The notes under the pieces were generated by a model that saw only the letters and a list, made by a program, of their open reading frames with translations, made no database searches and was not told the origin of the DNA. Source: Collimonas sp. (lineage in GTDB: Bacteria; Pseudomonadota; Gammaproteobacteria; Burkholderiales; Burkholderiaceae_D). From it: a stretch of DNA of 64,000 nt. The stretch is from positions 123,750 to 187,749 of the forward strand of contig NZ_DATMRK010000047.1 of NCBI RefSeq assembly GCF_035566375.1, given 5' to 3'. Every line of letters starts with the position of its first letter. Positions within the stretch are counted from its first letter, which is position 1. Position numbers and translations under genes: made by a program. Shown piece after piece: positions 1-28,733 of this stretch.

Positions 1-625
1 TCCTGGCCTCCTCGCCAAACGGCAGCAAGCGGGTTTTATTACCCTTGCCGGTAATCCGCAACACACCTTCGTTCATGCCGACTTCCAGCGATTTCAGCAA
101 CACCAGTTCGGATACCCGTAAGCCGCTGGCGTACATAAGCTCCAGCATGGTGCGGTCGCGCAAGCCGAGCGGCGTGGCGACATCGGGGGCCGCCAACAGC
201 GCTTCCACCTGGGCTTCCGACAAAGTCTTGGGAAAGCGCGGCGCTTGCTTGGCGGAGCGCAAATGCAGGCAAGGATCGGTGCTGATACGGTTTTGCCGCA
301 AGGCCAACAGATAAAACCGCTTCAACACCGCCAGGCGGCGATTCGAGGAAGTTGCCTTGCTAGTGTCATGTTTGGCCAGGAAATAAGCATTCAGATCGCC
401 GGCATGGATCGCAAACAAGGACTTGGCGTCCGGCTGCGCCTGCAACCACAAGGCGAATAGCGTCATGTCGCGGCGATAAGCCTCCAGCGAATTTTTGGCA
501 AGGCCGTCTTCCAGCCACAAGTTGTCGCAAAATTCGTCAATCGCGGTTTGATGTTCGGTGCTTAGCGCCGGTTTGGCCGGTTCGGCCGGTTTGACTTGTG
601 TTACATCAGCCTTGGATCTCCTCAC
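1..625 (-). CDS. xerD: Site-specific tyrosine recombinase XerD (N-terminal part, runs off the window edge)
   Basis: Manual translation gives IDEFCDNLWLEDGLAKNSLEAYRRD...ITGKGNKTRLLPFGEEAR. The probable GTG start at 625 overlaps the ogt stop (GTGA). Not in the ORF track because the stop lies outside the window. Confidence 0.9.
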   Translation of the reverse strand, partial: MRRSKADVTQVKPAEPAKPALSTEHQTAIDEFCDNLWLEDGLAKNSLEAYRRDMTLFALWLQAQPDAKSLFAIHAGDLNAYFLAKHDTSKATSSNRRLAVLKRFYLLALRQNRISTDPCLHLRSAKQAPRFPKTLSEAQVEALLAAPDVATPLGLRDRTMLELMYASGLRVSELVLLKSLEVGMNEGVLRITGKGNKTRLLPFGEEAR

Positions 626-1152
626 AAGCCGGCCACGCCTTCGTGCTCCAGCAGCCAGCGCTTGACCCGCAAATGGAAACCATCCGCTTCGTCGTGATGA
701 GAGAAGCCGCCTATGCCGCCAGCCGCAGTCACGCGGTGACAGGGAATCACCAGCGGAAACCAGTTGGCGCCGCAAGCTTGCCCCACCGCGCGCGGCGCCG
801 ATTCCACCAGCTTGGCAACCTGACCATAGGTCAGCACCTCGCCGCGTGGGATCGCCGTAATCGCCTTCCACACCTTGTGCTGGAAAGCGGTGCCCAGCGG
901 CGCCAGCGGCAGGTCGAAGCGAAAATCCGCTTGCTCGAAATAACGCTGAATCTGCTCGACGGCGCGTGCCGCCAAGGCGTCTGTGGCGTCTTTTTCGTGA
1001 AATGAAGGGGGCAGATAGACCAGTTCGTGCAGCAAACCGGCTTCCGTGCGAATCCCCATCGCACCGAATGGCGCGGCGACTACTGCGGTGAAATGTTGCG
1101 CGGGAAGCTGGCCGCCAGCGCGCTTCAACGGATTATCGGAAATTATATTCAT
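622..1152 (-). CDS. ogt: Methylated-DNA--protein-cysteine methyltransferase
   Basis: IPCHRV active site and SAPRAVGQACGAN HTH motif. ATG at 1152 chosen over the ORF-track start at 1197. Confidence 0.9.
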   Translation of the reverse strand: MNIISDNPLKRAGGQLPAQHFTAVVAAPFGAMGIRTEAGLLHELVYLPPSFHEKDATDALAARAVEQIQRYFEQADFRFDLPLAPLGTAFQHKVWKAITAIPRGEVLTYGQVAKLVESAPRAVGQACGANWFPLVIPCHRVTAAGGIGGFSHHDEADGFHLRVKRWLLEHEGVAGL

Positions 1153-1162
1153 GCGTAAGCAT

Positions 1163-1194
1163 AAAATAAAAAAGGCGCATCTGTCGATGCGCCT
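1163..1194 (-). terminator. Intrinsic terminator-like hairpin just upstream of ogt
   Basis: Minus strand reads AGGCGCATC-GACA-GATGCGCCT followed by TTTTTATTTT. Confidence 0.6.
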
Positions 1195-1803
1195 CAAATT
1201 ACTTCGTATGCACTCCTGGCTGTTTAGACAGCTTCATTTGGAACGCACGGTCTCCTCAGTATCCCCGGTATCAATACCGTTCTTTTATGCACCACCACCT
1301 ATAAATCCTGTTGATTCAACCTCGCAGTTTGTTTCTGCTGCTTAAAAAATCTGAATTCTGTGCCACATAAAACCACTTATCGGAAACCGTAGCTGCTTCA
1401 TTACAGCTGTTTTCAGGTCCGGCAATATCAAATTGTGGTCGCACTGTAACAGGTGTTAACGGGATTTAACAAATAATTTATATGAATCATTTTGACTAAA
1501 CAACATAGGTTTTCACTAAACCATTGTCAAATCAATATTCATAAAATTGCCCACCAGAAATACACTTAACAGCTTCCTTATCTACTTCCTTATCAGCTGA
1601 GACGGGGCAACAATCATCCGTTCGGTAAAATCCATCCGGCTGACTCGCGATGCCACATACTGATTGACTCCAAGCGGCGGATGGCTCATTTCAGCAATAC
1701 CTTAGCGGGCTGTTTACCACGAACGCATGCACCTCTGCCATTGCCGCCGGCGTTATAGAATCTCGAACGCGCCGCAGTGCACCTCACTTTCATCCACCAC
1801 GCC

Positions 1804-2697
1804 ATGTATATCCTCAACCTGCTACTCCCCGATTTTTCGCTGATCCTGCTAGGAACAGTCTTACACCGCATCAGCAACTGGGGTGATGAATTCTGGACCG
1901 GAGCGGAAAAGCTGGTGTATTTCCTACTTTTTCCAGCGTTGCTTTTTTACTCAACTGCGCGCACCCCGCTCAGTTTCGACACCAGCGGCAAAATGCTGGC
2001 GGTCGGCATGAGCGCGCTGTTCGGCGCCATCATCCTGACCTGGCTGGGCAAACCGTGGATCAAGGCAGCGCCCATGGATTATGAATCCGGCATGCAAACC
2101 GGCTACCGTTTCAACTCATACATGGCGCTGGCTCTGGCGGCCAGGCTGGGTGGCGAGCAAGCTACCGGCATGATGGCGTTGCTGATCGGCTTTGGCGTGC
2201 CCTTGTGCAATCTGGCGGCAGTACATGCCTTGGCGCATAAAAGCGGCGGCTTGTTCAAAGAGCTGGCGCGCAATCCCTTGCTGATCGCTACTGCTTGCGG
2301 GCTCTTATATAGCCTGTGCGGATTGCCGATGCCGGAAGTAGCGGGAGCAGTCCTGTCGCGGCTCGGCAATTCCGCGCTGGCGCTCGGCTTGCTGTTGGTT
2401 GGGGCTGGTCTGCGCTTAAGCGGCGTGCGTCACGCCAAGGCGCTGACCGGATATTTCCTCGCGATCAAGCTGCTGGCGCTGCCGACCATAGCCTGGCTGC
2501 TCGGACAGTGGCTGCGACTGGCGCCATCGCAACTGCAGATCGTCGTCCTGTTCTGCGCGCTGCCTACGGCATCCAGCGCTTACATTCTGGCGGCCAGAAT
2601 GGGCGGCAACGGCCCCTTGGTAGCATTCATGATTTCTGCCGGCACCATGTTGTCGGCCTTGACCCTGCCGTTCTGGCTGTCGCTGTTGCAACATTAA
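1804..2697 (+). CDS. AEC (auxin efflux carrier) family transporter
   Basis: About 10 hydrophobic segments, LFPALLF, RFNSY and LPTASSAYILAARMGG motifs typical of AEC/YfdV permeases. Confidence 0.85.
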   Translation: MYILNLLLPDFSLILLGTVLHRISNWGDEFWTGAEKLVYFLLFPALLFYSTARTPLSFDTSGKMLAVGMSALFGAIILTWLGKPWIKAAPMDYESGMQTGYRFNSYMALALAARLGGEQATGMMALLIGFGVPLCNLAAVHALAHKSGGLFKELARNPLLIATACGLLYSLCGLPMPEVAGAVLSRLGNSALALGLLLVGAGLRLSGVRHAKALTGYFLAIKLLALPTIAWLLGQWLRLAPSQLQIVVLFCALPTASSAYILAARMGGNGPLVAFMISAGTMLSALTLPFWLSLLQH

Positions 2698-2709
2698 TTG
2701 GCTGATGCG

Positions 2710-3813
2710 TCACACGCCGTGTTGCTGTAACGCCCACGCCACATGCTCGCGCACCAGTTCGGAAGAATCGTCCCTGCGCAGTTGCAAGGCAGCGATGATC
2801 TCCGGCGTACTGACGCCTGCCGCTGCAGTATTGCCAAGACCGACCGCCATATTGCGCAACCAGCGCTGATAACCAATGCGGCGGATCGGGCTACCTTCCA
2901 TGCGGCTATTGAATTGCTCCTCGCTCCAGCCGAATAATTCCACCAGGGTGGCCTGATCCAGGCCATTGCGGACGTCGAAATCGCCTAATGTGGAAGGCTG
3001 CGCAAACTTGTTCCATGGGCAGAACAGCTGGCAATCGTCGCAGCCGTAGACGCGGTTACCGATCAAGGGCCGCAGCTCCAGCGGAATGCTGCCTTTCAAC
3101 TCGATCGTCAGGTAAGAGATGCAGCGGCGCGCGTCAAGGCGATACGGACCGATAATTGCCTTGGTCGGGCAGACATCGATACAGGCGCTGCATTGCCCGC
3201 AGTGCGAACTGATGGGCTGGTCGACCGGCAACGGCAGGTCGGTCAGGATTTCACCGAGAAAGAAAAACGAGCCGGCCTCGCGATTCAGCAACAGCGTATG
3301 TTTGCCACGCCAGCCCAGGCCAGCCTTCTGCGCCAGCGCCACCTCCATCACCGGCGCCGAATCGGTAAACACCCGATAGCCGAACTCGCCGATTTCGCCT
3401 GTGATGCGATCCGCCAGTTGCTGCAAGCGCGAGCGCAGCACCTTGTGATAATCGCGTCCGCGCGCATACAGCGACACGGTGGCAGTGCCGGCCGCGGCCG
3501 GCGCCAGCCGCGCTTGCTCGCGCGGCCGCCAACTGCCCTGGTCATCCTGGTATGCGCGCGGCAGATAATCCATGCGTACCGCAATCGCCCGGATCGCCCC
3601 CGGCACCAGTTCGGCAGGCCGGGCGCGCTTCATTCCGTGCGCTGCCATATAATCCATGTCACCGTGATAGCCAAGCTCCAGCCATGCCTCGAACCCGGCC
3701 TCCTGCTGCGCCAGATCGACGTCACTGATGCGAATATCGGCAAAGCCAAGCTCCCGCCCCCAAGCTTTTATGGTGGTGGCTAGCTCTACTAAATTGTGTT
3801 CCGTGACAACCAT
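2710..3813 (-). CDS. queG: Epoxyqueuosine reductase
   Basis: YARGRDYHKV, FTDSAPVME, CGQCSACIDVCPT and YGCDDCQLFCPWN (two 4Fe-4S motifs). Confidence 0.95.
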   Translation of the reverse strand: MVVTEHNLVELATTIKAWGRELGFADIRISDVDLAQQEAGFEAWLELGYHGDMDYMAAHGMKRARPAELVPGAIRAIAVRMDYLPRAYQDDQGSWRPREQARLAPAAAGTATVSLYARGRDYHKVLRSRLQQLADRITGEIGEFGYRVFTDSAPVMEVALAQKAGLGWRGKHTLLLNREAGSFFFLGEILTDLPLPVDQPISSHCGQCSACIDVCPTKAIIGPYRLDARRCISYLTIELKGSIPLELRPLIGNRVYGCDDCQLFCPWNKFAQPSTLGDFDVRNGLDQATLVELFGWSEEQFNSRMEGSPIRRIGYQRWLRNMAVGLGNTAAAGVSTPEIIAALQLRRDDSSELVREHVAWALQQHGV

Positions 3814-8558: not shown

Positions 8559-9545
8559 ATGTCATCACAATCAGCAACATCCACAGCCAAACCGCTGGTG
8601 GTCGCCATCATGGGGCCCACCGCTTCTGGCAAAACCGCCGCCGCGCTGGAAATCGCCCGCCGTATTCCATCGGAAATCGTCTCGGTCGATTCAGCGCTGG
8701 TGTATCGCGGCATGGACATCGGCACCGCCAAGCCCAGCCGCAGCGAACTGGCCGCAGCGCCGCACCACCTGATCGACATCATGGAGCCGACGCAATCGTA
8801 TTCGGCCATGCAATTCCGCGACGACGCACTGCGCCTGTCGGCTGATATCCATGCGCGCGGCAAGCTGGTGTTGATGGTCGGCGGCACCATGCTGTATTTC
8901 AAGGCCCTGCGCGACGGCCTCGACGCCTTGCCGCAAGCCGATCCGCAACTGCGCGCCCGGCTGGATGCGGAAGCTGCCCTGATCGGCGTGCCCGGCATGC
9001 ACGCCAAGCTGGCGCAACTGGATCCAATCACCGCCGCCCGCCTGAAACCAAACGACAGCCAGCGCATCCAGCGCGCCCTCGAAATCATCGAGCTAAGCGG
9101 CCAGACCATGTCCTCGCTGCTGACTGACCGGCCGGCGCCGGAATTGCCGTTCGATATTCTGCCTATAGCCTTGGAACCGTCGGACCGCAGCGTATTGCAT
9201 GAGCGGATCGCCCGGCGCTTCGATCTGATGCTGGATTTGCAAAGCGGCGGCTTAAAAAGTGGTGGCTTAATACGGGAAGTAGAAGAACTGCGCGCCCGCG
9301 GCGACCTGCACCTCGGCCTGCCGTCGATGCGTTGCGTCGGCTATCGCCAGACCTGGGAATATCTGGATGGCCAGTACGGCTACCAGGAATTGCGTGAAAA
9401 AGGCATCGCCGCTACCCGTCAGCTGGCCAAACGCCAGTTGACCTGGCTACGCTCGATGCCGGAGCGGATCGTGATTGACTGTATCGGCGATCATGTTTCC
9501 GAGTCAGTGTTGGAGACTGTAGCGGCGGCCCTTAAGCAGCGATAA
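8559..9545 (+). CDS. miaA: tRNA dimethylallyltransferase
   Basis: [26 protein letters not shown] and [12 protein letters not shown]; follows mutL. Confidence 0.97.
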
Positions 9546-9631
9546 CACCACACAATTACCCTTAAAAAGCATCGCAAACCTGTTTTTCTTGACAGCATTT
9601 AGCGAAATGCTTCATAATTTAGGGCTTCATT

Positions 9632-9708
9632 GGTGATATAGCTCAGTTGGTTAGAGCACAGCACTCATAATGCTGGGGTCGGTGGTTCAAGTCCACCTAT
9701 CACCACCA
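9632..9708 (+). tRNA. tRNA-Met (CAT), probably elongator type
   Basis: 77-nt cloverleaf GGTGATA...TATCACC-ACCA with D-arm GCTCAGTTGGTTAGAGC, anticodon loop CTCATAA and T-loop TTCAAGT. CCA is encoded. Confidence 0.95.
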
Positions 9709-9741
9709 AGAACACGTTTCAAGAAGTCCGGTAACGTACAG

Positions 9742-9778
9742 AAACCCGCCTCTAGCCTAGTGCTGATGCGGGTTTTTT
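9742..9778 (+). terminator. Hairpin/terminator after tRNA-Met
   Basis: AAACCCGC...GCGGGTTTTTT. Confidence 0.65.
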
Positions 9779-9975
9779 GTTTGTTGAACGTTGATGAAAT
9801 CACACCAACAAAGAAAACAGCGCGATTATTGCACTTACTACAGCACCAATGAGTGCGACAAATTCCCCCCCCGTCCAGACGGCTTGCTTCGGTTTTTCTA
9901 TGCGGCCCCTTGATGTCGGACATGAAATTGCCCTTTCTAGTTCGAGCACAACTCTACCGGCCCCCAGCGCTTGAT

Positions 9976-10046
9976 AAAAAAAAGCCCGCCAACCTTGCGG
10001 CTGCGGGCTAAATCCAAAACTTAGGGAGAGTTGGAGGAGACTCAAC
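9976..10046 (-). ncRNA. Betaproteobacterial 'toxic' small RNA-like (CU-rich anti-SD sRNA)
   Basis: Minus strand GTCTCCTCCAACTCTCCCTAAGTTTTGGATTTAGCCCGCAGCCGCAAGGTTGGCGGGCTTTTTTTT: CU-rich motifs, then GGAT, then a GCCCG terminator, the layout recalled for the Burkholderia/Ralstonia toxic sRNA family. Confidence 0.7.
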
Positions 10047-10109
10047 CGATATTGCGCCGTTGAATCAATTTTCAATACCCTTTTACAATTATTTGTATCA
10101 GCGAAATAC

Positions 10110-10143
10110 AAAAAGCCCCGAACCGGTGAAGTTACAGGGCTTT
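10110..10143 (-). terminator. Terminator-like hairpin downstream of dodecin
   Basis: Minus strand AAAGCCC...GGGCTTTTT. Confidence 0.5.
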
Positions 10144-10262
10144 GAAATCTGGCCGCAGCGATAAAGGGTGGCCCTTCACGCATTACTGATCAGGATTTCT
10201 TATTTTTTTGTCGACGCCACATAACCTGGCCTCAAACTGTTTGCTTTTGAATTTTCGCCCGC

Positions 10263-10481
10263 TCAGGACGCGGCATCCAAAAGTCTGAAACCAACCTTGA
10301 GTGTGACCTGATAGTGAGCCACCTTACCATCCGCTATATGCCCACGTGTTCCAATGACTTCAAACCAGTCCATGTGTTTTACCGTGAGTGCCGCCTTGGA
10401 AATCGCGTTATGGATTGCGTCATCAGTGCCGATCGCGGACGATCCAACCAGTTCGACTATCTTGTAAGTATGTGCGGACAT
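10263..10481 (-). CDS. Dodecin family flavin-binding protein
   Basis: 72 aa, YKIVELVGSS...WFEV...RGHI.DGKVAHYQVTLKVGFRL. Confidence 0.92.
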   Translation of the reverse strand: MSAHTYKIVELVGSSAIGTDDAIHNAISKAALTVKHMDWFEVIGTRGHIADGKVAHYQVTLKVGFRLLDAAS

Positions 10482-10612
10482 ACGAATCTCCTTTGTTAAT
10501 TGCTGTTTTAAGGAAGATACTGCTGCCCGTTCACTTTACTCCTGCCATGCAGTAAAGCAATCCGCAACCATAACAACGACTACTTTTTTAGCTTGGCCTG
10601 GTCCGCTTGAAC

Positions 10613-23966: not shown

Positions 23967-25133
23967 TTGAAAACTAAAACTCCTACCCAGCCGCACTACT
24001 TCATTCCCGAGCCTCTAGACAATACGCGGCTGGCGCATCTGTGCGGCCCGCTGGATGAAAACCTGCGGCAGATTTCTGCTGCACTGGATGTGTCGCTATT
24101 CCGCCGTGGCGACAGATTTATCGCCGCCGGCAGCAATGCCGAACGCGCCGTAGAAATACTCGATCAGTTTTATGCCATCGCCAATAAAGTGATTTCGGTG
24201 GATGAAATCCAGCTGGCTCTAGTCGAGCAAAGGGCCAGGCTAGGCTTGGGAAAGAAAACAAAAACCAGCAAAAGCAACGGTAAGGTCGACGGCGAAAGCG
24301 GCGATGAAACGGGGATCGATCCAGCCGACGCCGAGCTGACCGAGAGCGATATCGAAAGCCCGGTCCTGAAAACCCGGCGTAGCGATCTGCGCGGCCGCAC
24401 TCCGCATCAAAGCCAATATATCCGCTCGATTCTGGAACACGACGTGACGCTAGGCATCGGTCCGGCCGGCACCGGCAAGACCTACCTGGCAGTCGCCTGC
24501 GCGGTTGACGCGCTGGAACGCGATGCGGTCAAGCGCATCGTGCTGACGCGGCCGGCGGTTGAAGCTGGCGAGCGCCTGGGTTTCCTGCCCGGCGATCTGG
24601 CGCAAAAAGTCGATCCCTATCTGCGCCCTCTGTATGACGCGCTGTATGACTTGCTAGGCTTTGACCGCACCCAGAAAATGTTTGAAAAGCAGGCGATCGA
24701 AATCGCGCCGCTGGCGTATATGCGCGGCCGCACGCTGAACCACGCTTTCATCATTTTGGACGAAGCGCAAAACACCACGCCGGAACAGATGAAAATGTTC
24801 CTGACCCGGATCGGCTTCGGCAGCAAAGCCGTAGTCACCGGCGACGTCACCCAGATCGACCTGCAACGCGGCCAGAAGAGCGGCTTGATCGACGCCGTGA
24901 ATATCCTGAAAGATGTGCGCGGCATCGCCTTCACCCGCTTCAACAGCAGCGACGTGGTGCGTCACCCCCTGGTAGCGCGCATTGTCGACGCCTACGAAAC
25001 CGCATTGCAAGCGGCGCCGGTCGCATCCACGCATGGCGTGATCGAAGCCGCCACGCCGCCAGCCGCTGCCGCCATGCCAGTGCCAACCGGAATTACCAAA
25101 ACCGCTCGCAGCCGCCATGCCGCCAAAAAATAA
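23967..25133 (+). CDS. PhoH family ATPase (YbeZ), TTG start
   Basis: [37 protein letters not shown] and DEAQN. Confidence 0.95.
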
Positions 25134-25596
25134 ACTTTCCTTATCAGTGCAATATCCCGATGCACGCCTGCAAGACAGTGTGCCGCGCCCACAATTGCGA
25201 CGCTGGGTGCAGGCGGCTTTGCTGGCGCCGGCGGAACTGACGATTCGTTTTGTCGACGCCGACGAAGGCCGCGCCCTGAACCGCGACTATCGCGGCAAGG
25301 ATTACGCCACCAATGTGCTGACCTTTGCTTACTCTGAAGACGAGGCTGAAGAAGATGACGGCGTAGAAGGTGGCGTGACCCAAGCCGACATCATCCTCTG
25401 CACCGACGTCTTGCAACGCGAGGCTGGGGAACAGGGCAAGAGCGTGGTGGAACATGCCGCGCATCTGGTGGTGCACGGGGTCCTGCATGCACAAGGTTAT
25501 GACCATGAAGACGATGAAGAAGCGACCGAAATGGAAAGCCTGGAAATAGAAATATTAGGCAAGCTCGGCTGGCCCAATCCCTACGCCGATCGATAA
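25117..25596 (+). CDS. ybeY: rRNA maturation RNase YbeY
   Basis: [17 protein letters not shown] and [11 protein letters not shown]. Confidence 0.95.
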
Positions 25597-25612
25597 TTTC
25601 TCGCCTCCAATG

Positions 25613-25643
25613 AAACGCCGCCTCTGCGGCGTTTTTCTTTTTT
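25613..25643 (+). terminator. Intrinsic terminator after ybeY
   Basis: AAACGCCGC-CTCT-GCGGCGTTT followed by a T-rich tail. Confidence 0.7.
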
Positions 25644-25831
25644 GCAATCAATATTTGATATTAAGCGCTTAAAAATCAAAGACTTGCAGTAAAAACATTG
25701 CCACAAAAATATTACATTTCTCCTCTTATCTTTTTAATTAATAAGATTATGATGAAAGTCATGTAATGAACTGCTTTGGTCTGCGACTAAGCCATATGAA
25801 AAATATCATTGCATAGCAATCGGAGACAATC

Positions 25832-25912
25832 GTGAAACGACTCATGCTACCCCTTATGCTGCCCGTTATGCTGCTCGGATTGACCGCCCTTCCCTTTACA
25901 CAGGCGGCCTAA
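25832..25912 (+). CDS. 26-aa Met-rich, signal-peptide-like small ORF (MKRLMLPLMLPVMLLGLTALPFTQAA)
   Basis: GGAG RBS at 25822-25825, GTG 25832; the TAA at 25910-25912 directly abuts the next ATG in the same frame. Confidence 0.45.
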   Translation: MKRLMLPLMLPVMLLGLTALPFTQAA

Positions 25913-26518
25913 ATGTCATCCTCTACACTCAAAAAGCCTATCGTTCACCCGATCTGGCTGCGCGTCACCCACTGGCTCAACGCGCTGGCCGTGATCATCA
26001 TGATCCTGAGCGGCTGGCGCATCTATAACGCATCGCCGATTTTCCCGTTTCACATTCCCAACCAATGGACCCTGGGCGGCTGGCTCGGCGGCGCCCTGCA
26101 ATGGCATTTTGCGGCGATGTGGCTGCTGTTCTTCAACGGCCTGGTATATCTGCTGATGAATACCGCCAGCGGCCGCCTGTGGAAAAAATTCTTGCCGCTG
26201 CGTCCGGTCGAAGTGGTTCAGGACTTGATCAAGGCGCTGCGCGGCAAGCTGCAGCACGATCAGCTCGACCATTACAACGCGGTACAAAAGCTGGCATATG
26301 TGTCGGTCATCCTGGATTTGATCCTGCTGGTGATCTCCGGCCTGGCGATCTGGAAATCGGTGCAGTTTCCAATTTTGCGCGAACTTATGGGCGGCTTCGA
26401 CAGCGCCAGGATCGTGCATTTCTTTGCGATGAGCTTTCTGGTCGCATTTATCGTGGTGCACATCGTCATGGTGGCACTGGTCCCACGCACACTGCTAGCC
26501 ATGCTGCGCGGCCGCTAA
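25913..26518 (+). CDS. Di-heme cytochrome b/b6-domain membrane subunit (MsrQ-like role)
   Basis: Four TM helices with His in VTHWLN, QWHFAA, IVHFFA and VVHIVM; YNAVQKLAY. Confidence 0.85.
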   Translation: MSSSTLKKPIVHPIWLRVTHWLNALAVIIMILSGWRIYNASPIFPFHIPNQWTLGGWLGGALQWHFAAMWLLFFNGLVYLLMNTASGRLWKKFLPLRPVEVVQDLIKALRGKLQHDQLDHYNAVQKLAYVSVILDLILLVISGLAIWKSVQFPILRELMGGFDSARIVHFFAMSFLVAFIVVHIVMVALVPRTLLAMLRGR

Positions 26519-26535
26519 GGGGAATGGAGATGATC

Positions 26536-27309
26536 ATGTTCAAGAAAAATCTTCACTCGACGCTCGACACCGACGCCATATTGAAAGACGCACGGCGCGA
26601 GCTGGCAATGCCATCGCGCCGCCTGTTCGCCAAGCGCGCACTTACCTTGGGCGGCCTGTCGCTGCTGACCGGCTGCAACATCACCGACGAGCCCTCCGTC
26701 AACCGCATGCTGGAGCGCATCTCACGCATGAATGACGGCGTGCAAGGATGGCTGTTCGATCCGCAGAGACTGGCGCCGACTTACACCCAAGCCGAAATGA
26801 CCCGTCCATTTCCGTTCAATGCGTTCTACAGCGTCGATGAAGTGCCGGAAATCGACGAGGCCGACTACCAGCTGGAAATAAGCGGACTGGTCAGCAACAA
26901 ACGCCCCTGGACGCTGGCGCAATTGCACAAATTGCCGCAGAACGAGCAAATCACCCGCCACATTTGCGTCGAAGGCTGGAGCGCCATCGGCCGTTGGGGC
27001 GGCGTCCCGTTTTCTTATTTTCTCAAGCAGATCGGCGCCGACCTGAGCGCTAAATATGTCGACTTTCAATGCGGCGACGATTATCACACCAGCATCGACA
27101 TGGCGACCGCATTGCATCCGCAAACCCAGCTGAGCCTGACCTACGACGGCCAGATCCTGCCGGCGAAATACGGTTTCCCTATGAAATTGCGGATGCCGAC
27201 CAAACTCGGCTACAAGAATCCGAAACACATCATGTCGATCGAAGTAACGAATAAATACCCAGGCGGTTATTGGGAAGACCAGGGCTATAACTGGTTCGGC
27301 GGCTCGTAG
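26536..27309 (+). CDS. Molybdopterin-dependent oxidoreductase (sulfite oxidase/MsrP superfamily), Tat lipoprotein
   Basis: SRRLF…LLTGC (Tat + lipobox), Mo-ligand Cys in HICVEGWSAIGRWGG, GFPMKLRMPTKLGYKNPK. Start taken after the GGAG at 26526. Confidence 0.88.
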   Translation: MFKKNLHSTLDTDAILKDARRELAMPSRRLFAKRALTLGGLSLLTGCNITDEPSVNRMLERISRMNDGVQGWLFDPQRLAPTYTQAEMTRPFPFNAFYSVDEVPEIDEADYQLEISGLVSNKRPWTLAQLHKLPQNEQITRHICVEGWSAIGRWGGVPFSYFLKQIGADLSAKYVDFQCGDDYHTSIDMATALHPQTQLSLTYDGQILPAKYGFPMKLRMPTKLGYKNPKHIMSIEVTNKYPGGYWEDQGYNWFGGS

Positions 27310-27373
27310 GTGCTGATCCTGCAACCGTTTCTGTTTTTTTTGGCGCTTTTGCCACTTTTACTTGGAGACTCAA

Positions 27374-27679
27374 ATGAAGAAAAACCTCACAACTCTGTTG
27401 GTTACCTGCCTGATGATGACTGCTGGCGGGGTCTATGCGCAAGATACGATGTCGAAGGACGCTGCGTCTAAGACTACGATGGCCAAAGACGAAATGACGA
27501 AAGATAAAGATGCCATGGGCAAGGACGGCATGGACAAACCCGGTATGGCTAAAGACCATATGAAAAAGAAAATGCACACCAAAAAAGATGCGATGAAAAA
27601 AGATGAGATGGGCAAGGACGCCATGGACAAAGATGGCATGGGCAAAGATGGCATGGGTAAAGATGAAATGAAGAAATAA
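27374..27679 (+). CDS. Pentapeptide MXKDX repeat protein (periplasmic, Met-rich)
   Basis: Signal peptide to VYA|QD, then repeats such as MSKDA, MAKDE, MGKDG; 17 Met in 101 aa. Confidence 0.9.
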   Translation: MKKNLTTLLVTCLMMTAGGVYAQDTMSKDAASKTTMAKDEMTKDKDAMGKDGMDKPGMAKDHMKKKMHTKKDAMKKDEMGKDAMDKDGMGKDGMGKDEMKK

Positions 27680-27700
27680 TTAGCGTTTTTGCATTGCCAC

Positions 27701-27734
27701 GGATAATGCCTGCGGGCATTATCCTTTTTTTTTG
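27701..27734 (+). terminator. Intrinsic terminator after the MXKDX gene
   Basis: GGATAATGCC-TGCG-GGCATTATCC followed by a run of T. Confidence 0.8.
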
Positions 27735-27857: not shown

Positions 27858-28733
27858 ATGCCAGAGCACCCTAGTAGCGTCAAATCATTTGACGCTAAAC
27901 CCCACCGGTCGTTATTTGAACGCCTGACCGCACTGATTTCTCCCGAACCTGAAAATCGCGCTGAACTGCTCGATGTGCTGCAAGATGCACACGAACGCAA
28001 CCTGATCGACGCCGACGCTTTGTCGATGATCGAAGGCGTGTTCCAGGTCTCTGATCTTTCCGCCCGCGACATCATGATCCCGCGTTCGCAAATGGATATG
28101 ATCGACGTCACCAAACCGATCGAAGACTGGATGCCGGAAGTCCTGTCGACCGCTCACTCGCGTTTCCCTGCCGTCGACGGCGAGCGCGACAAGGTGATCG
28201 GCATCCTGCTGGCGAAAGACTTGCTGCGCTACTACGCCGAAGATTCTTTCGATGTGCGCGACATGTTGCGGCCGGCGGTTTTTATCCCCGAATCGAAACG
28301 CCTCAACGTCTTGCTGCGCGATTTTCGCGCCAACCGCAACCACATGGCGATCGTGGTCGATGAATACGGCGGCGTCGCCGGCCTGATCACGATTGAAGAC
28401 GTGCTGGAACAGATCGTCGGCGATATCGAGGACGAGTACGACTTCGATGAAGAAGAAGACAATATCCTCGCCATCCGCGACGGCGACCACGGCGGCCGCT
28501 GGCGGGTCAAGGCGCTGACCGAGATCGAACAATTCAACGAAACGCTTGAAACCGCGCTGGTCGACGAAGATGTCGATACGATTGGCGGCCTGGTCGCCAA
28601 TCATCTGGGACGCGTGCCGCGCAAAGGCGACGAATTCACGATAGACAATGTGCGGTTTGAAGTGCTACGCGCCGATGCCCGTCAGGTGCACGTCTTGCTG
28701 GTCGAAAAATTGCCGCAATCGGCTCAGGAATAA
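27858..28733 (+). CDS. corC: HlyC/CorC family CBS-domain Mg/Co transport protein
   Basis: AHSRFPAV, GILLAKDLL, VVDEYGGVAGLITIEDVLEQIVGDIEDEYD and a C-terminal CorC domain. Confidence 0.93.
   Translation: MPEHPSSVKSFDAKPHRSLFERLTALISPEPENRAELLDVLQDAHERNLIDADALSMIEGVFQVSDLSARDIMIPRSQMDMIDVTKPIEDWMPEVLSTAHSRFPAVDGERDKVIGILLAKDLLRYYAEDSFDVRDMLRPAVFIPESKRLNVLLRDFRANRNHMAIVVDEYGGVAGLITIEDVLEQIVGDIEDEYDFDEEEDNILAIRDGDHGGRWRVKALTEIEQFNETLETALVDEDVDTIGGLVANHLGRVPRKGDEFTIDNVRFEVLRADARQVHVLLVEKLPQSAQE

What the first reader, a model, noticed from the sequence alone, without database searches (positions are those of the whole stretch)
25913..27734. Cytochrome b + Tat molybdoenzyme + Met-rich MXKDX peptide inserted in the ybeY-corC operon: candidate periplasmic oxidant (HOCl) scavenging loop
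Seen: a three-gene unit bounded by terminators at 25613 and 27701 splits the usually contiguous ybeY-corC. The MXKDX protein has 14 Met in a 79-aa mature chain; the Mo enzyme has a Tat+lipobox signal and the CVEGWS Mo-Cys. Established: MsrPQ (YedYZ) reduce periplasmic methionine sulfoxide, and a Met-rich peptide plus YedYZ-type reductase scavenges hypochlorite in Azospira suillum. Inference: this variant (lipoprotein-anchored Mo subunit, cytochrome b/b6 partner, MXKDX sink) is a Met-oxidation/recycling system. No cognate ECF sigma or anti-sigma gene is in the window.
Basis: partly seen in the sequence, partly recalled or inferred. Interest (0 to 1): 0.62.

Follow-up and report, generated by a model that had tools for sequence, protein, structure and literature searches.

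The report
Periplasmic methionine-repair operon, known type
Three genes wedged between ybeY and corC (a membrane cytochrome b, a lipid-anchored molybdenum enzyme and a methionine-rich peptide) are a soil-bacterium copy of an oxidative-stress module already studied genetically in uropathogenic E. coli, so the finding is real but mostly not new.

Summary
A terminator-bounded unit sits between ybeY and corC: cytochrome b561-type protein (PF01292), Tat-lipoprotein SUOX-fold Mo enzyme (PF00174), and an MXKDX peptide (TIGR02953; 14 Met in 79 mature residues).

The cytochrome and Mo enzyme are 54% and 58% identical to the E. coli pair whose gene order matches c3566-c3568 of UPEC. That operon is OrhKR-regulated, confers peroxide resistance and is called a putative Msr system (PMC8550376). 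In 80 related loci the cytochrome always precedes the Mo gene, and an MXKDX gene is adjacent in about two thirds.

New here: an ECF-like promoter motif upstream of the operon. In this genome its best matches also precede msrPQ, an exported msrA and a DsbD-like/exported msrB operon. Across the genus it also precedes a secreted DUF1223 protein. This argues for co-regulation with periplasmic methionine-sulfoxide repair. The regulator was not identified.

The enzyme is not an MsrP equivalog (83 bits against a cut-off of 207) and its partner is not MsrQ. MetSO reductase activity is unproven for the whole class.

Verdict: new member of a known kind; modest interest.

The parts
25612..25635 (+). Intrinsic terminator after ybeY; upstream boundary of the inserted unit
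   Evidence: 10-bp stem with 6 GC pairs followed by a T-run
25762..25790 (+). ECF-type promoter-like motif TGTAATGAA-N14-CGACTAA, about 40 nt upstream of the GTG at 25832
   Evidence: Conserved in Collimonas, Herbaspirillum and Polaromonas loci. All 15 same-genus genomes have 1-4 copies, and a reversed-pattern control gives about 0. Other copies precede msrA, msrP, a DsbD-like gene and a DUF1223 gene.
25832..25912 (+). 26-codon upstream ORF (GGAG RBS, GTG start, TAA abutting the ATG at 25913). Probably a relic of the cytochrome's N-terminal extension, now translationally coupled to it.
   Evidence: In Herbaspirillum the homologous GGAGAC-N4-GTG is the cytochrome start codon itself. Collimonas OK242 has an 18-codon version.
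25913..26518 (+). Membrane cytochrome b561-type subunit (201 aa, PF01292), the presumed quinol-linked electron donor
   Evidence: Pfam E 3.4e-27. Five His residues are 99-100% conserved in 82 homologues. 54% identical to the E. coli c3566-type protein.
26530..27309 (+). Tat-exported, lipid-anchored SUOX-fold molybdoenzyme (259 aa; alternative starts at 26524 and 26536)
   Evidence: PF00174. MsrP model scores 83 bits, below its cut-off. SRRLF, LTGC and HICVEGWS are invariant. 58% identical to the E. coli c3567-type protein. Best fold match is YedY.
27374..27679 (+). Secreted MXKDX pentapeptide-repeat, Met-rich peptide (mature chain 79 aa, 14 Met)
   Evidence: TIGR02953 scores 70.9 bits. Composition. 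It is the only such gene in the genome.
27701..27724 (+). Intrinsic terminator; downstream boundary of the unit, ahead of corC
   Evidence: 10-bp stem followed by T9

Best explanation
The unit is one operon encoding a periplasmic methionine-sulfoxide reduction system with its own sacrificial substrate.

Proposed mechanism:
- The four-helix, probably di-haem cytochrome b takes electrons from the quinol pool.
- It passes them to a molybdopterin enzyme that is exported folded by Tat and tethered by a lipid anchor to the outer face of the inner membrane.
- That enzyme reduces methionine sulfoxide in periplasmic proteins, above all in the co-expressed, disordered MXKDX peptide.
- The peptide's 14 Met residues soak up oxidants (HOCl, chloramines, peroxides) and are recycled.

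The operon is driven by an ECF-type promoter shared with the cell's other periplasmic Msr systems (msrPQ, exported msrA, DsbD-like plus exported msrB).

Shown here: the gene content, the signal and motif features, the conservation of the module, its orthology to the E. coli module, and the shared promoter-like motif.

Inferred: the substrate, the direction of electron flow, the inducing oxidant, and that the motif is a promoter.
For: Family assignments.

MsrP-type active-site motifs (FNAFY aligned with YNNFYEF; CVEGWS identical to this genome's own MsrP), and no SorA-type motif or dimerisation domain.

Conservation of the module: cytochrome upstream in 80 of 80 loci; MXKDX adjacent in 37 loci by a strict rule and about 45 of 67 once over-extended ORF calls are counted.

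Neighbouring regulators and genes: OrhKR-like two-component system in 20 loci, ECF sigma plus NrsF in 12-14 loci, exported MsrB and MsrA directly downstream in Achromobacter L082, and DUF1223 upstream in about 15 loci.

Orthology: 58% and 54% identity to the E. coli pair lying between a two-component system and hlyCABD. This is the layout of orhKR-c3566-c3568-hlyCABD in PMC8550376, where the operon is peroxide-induced and c3566/c3567 mutants are peroxide-sensitive.

Published precedents: an MXKDX peptide with a reductase under SigF/NrsF gives HOCl resistance in Brucella (PMC8315932), and MrpX plus YedY1Z1 does so in Azospira (PMC4436054).

Shared motif: strict-pattern copies in 15 of 15 congeners, with 29 of 30 sites lying 7-122 nt upstream of the cytochrome operon, DUF1223, msrA, a DsbD-like gene or msrP. 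In this genome the four full-width PWM hits above 18 bits are this operon, msrPQ, exported msrA and DsbD-Trx plus Tat-MsrB.

Membrane anchoring: Enterobacterales members have Asp at position +2 after the lipobox Cys, the E. coli inner-membrane retention signal. This fits docking on an inner-membrane cytochrome.
Against: - No enzyme assay exists for this class. The Mo enzyme fails the MsrP equivalog cut-off (83 against 207 bits), lacks MsrP's insertion and C-terminal extension, and its partner belongs to a different family from MsrQ.
- The fold search does not separate YedY from SorA (E 5.7e-11 against 9.3e-11) and the model is of modest quality (pLDDT 62).
- With a core-only PWM, the msrP and DsbD-like sites score about the same as a few unrelated sites. 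Their standing rests on exact-motif copies at the orthologous genes in congeners.
- No sigma factor or regulator was identified.
- The oxidant is unknown. UPEC responds to peroxides, while Brucella and Azospira respond to HOCl or chlorite.
Confidence: 0.75

Rival explanations
1. The Mo enzyme acts on another substrate (sulfite or thiosulfate, free S- or N-oxides, or an unknown periplasmic oxidant product). The Met-rich peptide would then be a Cu(I)/Ag(I)-binding metallochaperone or buffer rather than a redox sink.
For: The SUOX fold is shared with sulfite dehydrogenases, and Foldseek scores SorA almost equal to YedY. The paralogous pair in this genome (C62) sits next to an OmpR-family response regulator and sensor kinase that I read, without an HMM test, as CopRS/CusRS-like. 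Met-rich periplasmic proteins commonly bind Cu(I) (general knowledge). The cytochrome gives weak hits to thiosulfate-reductase and formate-dehydrogenase b subunits.
Against: SorA and SoxC models score far below their cut-offs (48 of 600; 42 of 420). There is no dimerisation domain and no SO-type C-S-G-N-x-R motif. The promoter-like motif is shared only with Msr-type and thiol-redox genes, not with copper genes. msrB and msrA are neighbours in Achromobacter. Published mutant phenotypes are oxidant sensitivity (PMC8550376, PMC8315932). E. coli's own msrPQ regulator HprRS belongs to the CusRS family, so a Cop-like two-component system is not evidence for a metal role.
Confidence: 0.12
2. The cytochrome b561 itself is the functional core, for example as a superoxide:quinone oxidoreductase like E. 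coli CybB. The Mo protein and the peptide would be accessory, so the unit detoxifies superoxide or peroxide directly rather than repairing methionine.
For: PF01292 includes CybB-type cytochromes (general knowledge). The UPEC system protects against peroxides rather than HOCl (PMC8550376).
Against: The cytochrome is never found without the Mo gene in 80 of 80 loci, and the two genes abut or overlap in several of the loci whose ORFs were listed. The Mo-ligand Cys and the Tat signal are invariant. In UPEC both the c3566 and c3567 single mutants are sensitive (PMC8550376).
Confidence: 0.06
3. The three genes are neighbours but not a functional unit. The MXKDX gene would be independently expressed, and the insertion between ybeY and corC would be a neutral rearrangement.
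For: There is a 64-nt gap and a weak 5-bp hairpin (27341-27354) between the Mo gene and the MXKDX gene. About one third of related loci lack an adjacent MXKDX gene.
Against: The genes are on the same strand with no strong terminator inside the unit and strong ones only at its ends. The peptide gene keeps its adjacency in Beta- and Gammaproteobacteria and, in a distant variant, in Alphaproteobacteria, even when its position switches from downstream to upstream of the pair. Co-transcription is shown for the E. coli and Brucella operons (PMC8550376, PMC8315932).
Confidence: 0.05

Closest known systems
UPEC CFT073 c3566-c3567-c3568 operon under OrhK/OrhR (PMC8550376)
   Same: Same gene order (cytochrome b, Mo enzyme, small Met-rich peptide). 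54% and 58% identity to the E. coli proteins found between a two-component system and hlyCABD. The Mo subunit has a Tat signal and lipobox. The published role is protection from oxidants, and the system is called a putative Msr system.
   Different: There is no adjacent OrhKR-type two-component system (best genome hit 39% identity, generic OmpR family). It is not on a pathogenicity island and is not linked to hemolysin. It is inserted in the ybeY-corC housekeeping operon and carries an ECF-like promoter motif instead of the OrhR inverted repeat. The E. coli peptide scores lower as MXKDX and contains Cys. I matched strain A24 and found UTI89 and 536 among the hits; I did not retrieve the CFT073 record itself.
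Brucella melitensis BcrXQP under the ECF16 pair BcrS/AbcS (PMC8315932)
   Same: An MXKDX repeat peptide is co-transcribed with a membrane protein and a periplasmic reductase. It is HOCl-induced and protective. Its promoter (TGTAAC ... GCGAAA) resembles the TGTAAKGAA ... CGACTAA motif here.
   Different: The order is peptide first. A cognate SigF/NrsF pair is adjacent, and this genome has no NrsF. I could not check the Brucella sequences. Rhizobium loci with the same layout carry a longer PF01292 cytochrome (280 aa) and a Mo lipoprotein only about 30% identical to this one.
Azospira suillum MrpX-YedY1-YedZ1 under SigF/NrsF (PMC4436054)
   Same: The concept is the same: a secreted Met-rich sacrificial peptide plus a Mo-dependent periplasmic reductase that recycles it, induced by reactive chlorine species.
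   Different: The paper describes canonical YedY/YedZ-type proteins in the order Mo enzyme, membrane protein, peptide. Here the membrane partner is a b561-type cytochrome encoded first, and the Mo enzyme is a shorter lipoprotein.
E. coli MsrPQ (YedYZ) under HprRS
   Same: SUOX-fold Mo domain with a Tat signal. The Cys ligand lies in CVE(A/G)WS and there is an NxFY motif. Electrons come from a membrane haem protein. This genome has its own msrPQ preceded by the same promoter-like motif.
   Different: About 25-30% identity. It falls below the MsrP model cut-off, lacks MsrP's internal insertion and roughly 70-aa C-terminal extension, and is lipid-anchored rather than soluble. Its partner is PF01292, not the PF01794 ferric-reductase-type MsrQ.

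Membership tests
MsrP (NCBIfam NF003767 equivalog) | Whole-protein score at or above the curated cut-off (207 bits) | tested here: not met
   83.4 bits. Only profile positions 95-262 of 320 are matched.
MsrP (YedY-type Mo enzyme) | Mo-ligand Cys in the R-C-V-E-A/G-W-S context and an upstream N-x-F-Y motif | tested here: met
   HICVEGWS aligns with RCVEAWS of 1xdq and with RCVEGWS of this genome's own MsrP. PFNAFY aligns with YNNFYEF. The Cys is invariant in 12 homologues.
MsrP (YedY-type Mo enzyme) | Soluble periplasmic protein exported by Tat | tested here: not met
   The Tat motif SRRLFAK is present, but it is followed by the invariant lipobox L-(T/S)-G-C, which predicts a lipoprotein.
MsrP (YedY-type Mo enzyme) | Protein-MetSO reductase activity | not testable with these tools
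None is reported for this class in the papers read (PMC8550376 calls it 'putative').
MsrQ (YedZ, PF01794 ferric-reductase-like) | Match to PF01794 | tested here: not met
   The only Pfam hit is PF01292 Ni_hydr_CYTB, E 3.4e-27. The genome's true MsrQ gave no tblastn hit in any related locus.
Pentapeptide MXKDX repeat protein (TIGR02953) | Score above the cut-off of 41 bits; signal peptide followed by M-x-K-D-x repeats | tested here: met
   70.9 bits. Signal peptide ends in VYA, and there are ten repeats and 14 Met in 79 aa.
OrhKR-regulated c3566-c3568 module (UPEC) | Gene order cytochrome b, Mo enzyme, Met-rich peptide, with orthologous proteins | tested here: met
   54% and 58% identity over full length. 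The E. coli locus L088 has the published layout.
OrhKR-regulated c3566-c3568 module (UPEC) | Divergent cognate OrhK/OrhR two-component system | tested here: not met
   None is adjacent. The best genome hits are 33% (kinase) and 39% (regulator), which are generic.
ECF16 (SigF/NrsF) regulon | Cognate SigF-type sigma and NrsF anti-sigma; promoter TGTAACC-N16-CGAA | tested here: not met
   No NrsF in the genome (best E 5.2) and only a 60-aa weak sigma hit. The promoter-like motif is related but distinct: TGTAA(G/T)GAA-N14-CGAC(T/C)AA.
Sulfite oxidase / SorA / SoxC | Model cut-offs (600 and 420 bits), Mo-co dimerisation domain, SO-type Cys context | tested here: not met
   SorA scores 47.8 bits and SoxC 41.6 bits. 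Only PF00174 is found and the protein ends after it. The genome's SorA-like protein has QCSGNSR where this one has ICVEGWS.

The most novel reading that the evidence does not exclude
Collimonas may run a dedicated 'periplasmic methionine-oxidation' regulon from one ECF16-like promoter type, TGTAA(G/T)GAA-N14-CGAC(T/C)AA. Its members would be cytb561-Mo-MXKDX, msrPQ, an exported msrA, a DsbD-like protein plus Tat-exported msrB, and in most congeners a secreted DUF1223 CxxC protein. The sigma factor would be neither SigF/NrsF nor adjacent to any target, and it is unidentified. Within this regulon the b561-cytochrome/lipoprotein pair would be a third, biochemically uncharacterised class of Mo-dependent MetSO reductase, distinct from MsrPQ. 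It is very widespread: the homologue search filled its 8000-candidate limit, all with E at or below 1e-5.
Probability: 0.45. Interest if true: 0.5.

Novelty: new member of a known kind. Interest (0 to 1): 0.3.

Why it matters
The module itself is already in the literature as a putative Msr system in UPEC, with a likely counterpart in Brucella. This locus therefore adds a non-pathogen member in a new genomic and regulatory setting rather than a new system.

Two things give it some value.

1. The survey shows that the published 'MsrPQ homologues' are really a separate, very common architecture: a b561-type cytochrome, a Tat-lipoprotein 'mini-MsrP' and usually an MXKDX peptide. It occurs with at least three alternative regulatory set-ups (OrhKR-like two-component system, SigF/NrsF, or an unlinked factor). 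Its enzymology has never been tested.

2. The shared promoter motif links it in one organism to every other periplasmic methionine-sulfoxide reductase. This is the best available in-silico evidence for its function. It also gives a simple handle (one motif, four or five operons) for finding the regulator and the inducing oxidant in a harmless soil bacterium.

Tried and rejected
- The 26-codon ORF as a new Met-rich micro-protein: rejected. It is not conserved outside Collimonas, and in Herbaspirillum the same RBS and GTG start the cytochrome itself.
- An autoregulated ECF sigma carrying the motif: searched upstream of 13 of the 17 sigma-70-family hits, covering all ECF-sized ones, and genome-wide with a PWM. 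None was found. The ECF on contig C58, the only weak SigF hit, sits in a conserved operon with a 135-aa and a 235-aa ORF that I took, from memory and without an HMM test, to be DUF3619- and DUF3106-like, and it has no convincing motif.
- The HprR/CusR box or the OrhR inverted repeat as an explanation for the motif: judged by eye, the motif has no palindromic partner and does not match TCACA-N15-TGTGA.
- Recent horizontal transfer of the unit: coding GC (0.55-0.59) equals that of the flanks, and the insertion is shared with Herbaspirillum, so it is old.
- Confirming that Brucella BcrQ/BcrP belong to this class: the homologue search with the Rhizobium-type cytochrome listed only Rhizobiaceae in the top 120, so this stays unverified.
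- Literature search for MsrP plus cytochrome b561, or for methionine-rich plus molybdopterin plus cytochrome b561: no papers.
- Neisseria and Haemophilus ECF papers: they gave no promoter consensus to compare.
- The structure model was only moderate (pLDDT 62, active-site loop below 50) and could not discriminate a YedY-like from a SorA-like fold.
Full report
**What is there**

The window carries the conserved order miaB, phoH, ybeY, corC, lnt. Between ybeY (25117-25596) and corC (27858-28733) lies a 2.26-kb insert. It is bounded by two strong intrinsic terminators at 25612-25635 and 27701-27724.

The insert encodes three proteins on the + strand:
- a 201-aa cytochrome of the b561/Ni_hydr_CYTB family (PF01292, E 3.4e-27);
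- a roughly 259-aa protein with a single molybdopterin-oxidoreductase domain (PF00174, E 6e-30);
- a 101-aa secreted peptide that matches the pentapeptide MXKDX model (TIGR02953, 70.9 bits against a cut-off of 41).

- The Mo protein has a twin-arginine motif (SRRLFAK), a lipobox (LLTGC) and the motif HICVEGWS. All three are invariant in a 12-sequence alignment.
- The mature peptide is 79 residues with 14 Met, 21 Lys and 15 Asp.
- In 82 homologues of the cytochrome, His20, 65, 115, 169 and 183 are 99-100% conserved. This fits a di-haem four-helix protein.
- ybeY and corC are neighbours (gap of 120 nt or less) in 22 of 29 other genera of the order, so the insertion is unusual.
- The insertion is shared by Collimonas sp. 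OK242 (92% identical Mo protein) and two Herbaspirillum genomes. Its GC content matches the flanks. It is therefore old.

**What kind of enzyme**

The Mo protein is not an MsrP by the curated test: 83 bits against a cut-off of 207. MsrP is nevertheless its best model, ahead of SorA (48 bits) and SoxC (42 bits). YedY is its best solved relative by sequence (E 2e-12) and, narrowly, by fold (E 5.7e-11, with SorA at 9.3e-11; the model has pLDDT 62).

I aligned it with this genome's own MsrP and SorA-like proteins.
- It shares CVEGWS and the NxFY motif with MsrP.
- It lacks the SorA-type C-S-G-N-x-R context and any dimerisation domain.
- It also lacks MsrP's internal insertion and C-terminal extension.

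The partner cytochrome is not MsrQ. Pfam finds only PF01292, and the genome's real MsrQ hits nothing in any related locus.

The pair is thus a distinct architecture: a b561-type cytochrome plus a lipid-anchored 'mini-MsrP'. In Enterobacterales the residue after the lipobox Cys is Asp, the inner-membrane retention signal in E. coli. This fits docking on an inner-membrane cytochrome.

**Co-occurrence survey**

The family is very large. The homologue search filled its 8000-candidate limit, all with E at or below 1e-5, and the 120 best hits were 68-90% identical.

In the 80 best genomic loci:
- the cytochrome gene lies immediately upstream of the Mo gene in 80 of 80;
- an MXKDX-type gene is adjacent in 37 of 67 complete loci by a strict rule, and in about 45 once over-extended ORF calls and two slightly more distant copies are counted. 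It is usually downstream, and upstream in Cupriavidus and Burkholderia.

Recurrent neighbours are:
- a divergent two-component system (20 loci: Enterobacterales, Achromobacter, Variovorax);
- an ECF sigma with an NrsF anti-sigma (12-14 loci; Pfam confirmed);
- a secreted DUF1223 CxxC protein (about 15 loci);
- in Achromobacter, Tat-exported msrB and exported msrA directly after the peptide gene.

A second subtype lacks the peptide. It carries instead a two-component system that looks CopRS/HprRS-like and a roughly 200-aa periplasmic protein of no known family. This genome has such a paralogue on contig C62.

I also surveyed from the peptide side. 21 of 401 sampled Pseudomonadota genomes have a TIGR02953 gene above the cut-off. 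Of 29 loci, 13 lie next to cytochrome-plus-Mo pairs. Six of these are close relatives. Seven are a distant type (seen in Rhizobium for the locus I checked), six of them beside SigF/NrsF genes and one beside an OrhR-like regulator. None lies next to a canonical MsrQ.

**It is already known**

The paper search for MrpX led to PMC8550376. In uropathogenic E. coli CFT073 the two-component system OrhK/OrhR directly activates c3566 (cytochrome b), c3567 (27.6% identical to MsrP) and c3568 (a small Met-rich peptide). The three genes are co-transcribed with hlyCABD. The operon is induced by peroxide and inside macrophages, and c3566 and c3567 mutants are peroxide-sensitive. The authors call it a putative Msr system.

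E. coli genomes contain exactly this layout. Its proteins are 54% (cytochrome) and 58% (Mo enzyme) identical to the window's over their full length. The module is in 286-353 of 5426 complete E. coli genomes, including UTI89 and 536.

Two further precedents exist.
- PMC8315932 shows that an MXKDX peptide (BcrX) co-transcribed with 'MsrQP homologues' under an ECF16 sigma gives HOCl resistance in Brucella.
- PMC4436054 established the sink-and-recycle idea for MrpX and YedY1Z1 in Azospira.

**What this locus adds**

No regulator is nearby. No sigma-70-family gene lies in the window, the genome has no NrsF, and no OrhKR orthologue exists.

The intergenic region does hold a motif, TGTAATGAACTGCTTTGGTCTGCGACTAA (25762-25790). 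It is conserved in Collimonas, Herbaspirillum and Polaromonas loci. It resembles the SigF promoter TGTAACC-N16-CGAA, which I found upstream of the sigF-linked loci.

The strict pattern occurs 1-4 times in each of 15 same-genus genomes. It does not occur in ten other families, and a reversed control gives about zero.

Of 30 sites retrieved, 29 lie 7-122 nt upstream of a gene:
- 11 at the cytochrome operon;
- 12 at the DUF1223 gene;
- 3 at an exported msrA;
- 2 at a DsbD_TM-redoxin gene;
- 1 at msrP.

A full-width weight matrix gives just four hits above 18 bits in this genome:
- this operon;
- msrPQ (C49);
- an exported msrA (C71);
- an operon for a DsbD-like thioredoxin protein plus a Tat-exported MsrB (C47, about 10.6 kb beyond the window).

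With core columns only, the msrP and DsbD-like sites are not separated from a few unrelated sites. Their weight therefore rests on the exact-motif copies at orthologous genes in congeners. The matrix was also trained partly on these same sites.

I read this as a regulon for periplasmic methionine-sulfoxide repair with an unidentified ECF-type sigma. I could not find the factor.

**The small ORF**

A 26-codon ORF (25832-25912) has a good RBS and ends with TAA directly before the cytochrome's ATG. In Herbaspirillum the same RBS and GTG start the cytochrome itself, and Collimonas OK242 has an 18-codon version. I take it to be a remnant of the N-terminal extension that now acts, at most, as a coupled upstream ORF.

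**Limits**

- No biochemical evidence for MetSO reduction exists for this class.
- The inducing oxidant in Collimonas is unknown.
- That the motif is a promoter is an inference.
- I could not check the Brucella sequences.

**Verdict**

It is largely anticipated by published work on orthologues, so this is a new member of a known kind. It comes with a useful regulon lead and a clearer definition of the class.

Noticed in passing
window 25832-25912: A 26-codon ORF (MKRLMLPLMLPVMLLGLTALPFTQAA) with a GGAG RBS whose TAA stop abuts the cytochrome's ATG. It is homologous to the 5' end of the Herbaspirillum cytochrome gene, so it is probably a relic acting as a coupled upstream ORF.
   Followed up: yes
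genome contig C62:76509-80896 (outside the window): A paralogous cytochrome b561 plus Tat-lipoprotein Mo enzyme pair (55% and 61% identical). It has no Met-rich peptide. It sits next to a two-component system that I read, without an HMM test, as CopRS/HprRS-like, and a 207-229-aa periplasmic protein with no Pfam family. The same subtype occurs in Caballeronia loci L026, L028, L031, L033, L048 and L052.
   Followed up: partly
genome C49:15222, C71:15376, C47:198394 (the last about 10.6 kb beyond the window end): The same promoter-like motif precedes canonical msrPQ, an exported MsrA, and an operon for a 581-aa DsbD_TM-redoxin-Thioredoxin_10 protein plus a Tat-exported MsrB.
   Followed up: yes
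loci L091, L092, L096, L102, L104-L106, L109, L111, L114, L115, L118; also L009-L023: A secreted DUF1223 protein with a CNSCPP motif carries the motif in 12 of the 30 retrieved Collimonas sites and lies directly upstream of the cytochrome-Mo pair in about 15 Paraburkholderia-type loci. The gene is absent from this genome. It may be an uncharacterised member of the same repair network.
   Followed up: partly
locus L159 (Rhizobium-type), 121-3225: A distant variant of the module: ECF sigma and NrsF are divergent from an MXKDX peptide, a 280-aa PF01292 cytochrome (often also PF14358) and a Tat-lipoprotein Mo enzyme (RHDCVEGWS). The layout matches Brucella bcrS-abcS/bcrXQP, which suggests that the published 'MsrQP homologues' of Brucella belong to this class. 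The Brucella sequences were not checked.
   Followed up: partly
window 26530-26620 and alignment A1: The Tat signal has an unusually long, conserved n-region (LDxxxILKDARREL) before the twin arginines. It might be a binding site for a cofactor-insertion chaperone.
   Followed up: no
window 27341-27354: A weak 5-bp hairpin followed by a T-rich stretch lies between the Mo gene stop and the MXKDX start. It could modulate the ratio of enzyme to peptide, or it could be chance.
   Followed up: no
locus L082 (Achromobacter) 8801-10482: The MXKDX gene is followed directly by a Tat-exported msrB and an exported msrA, all downstream of the cytochrome-Mo pair and a divergent OrhKR-like two-component system.
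   Followed up: partly
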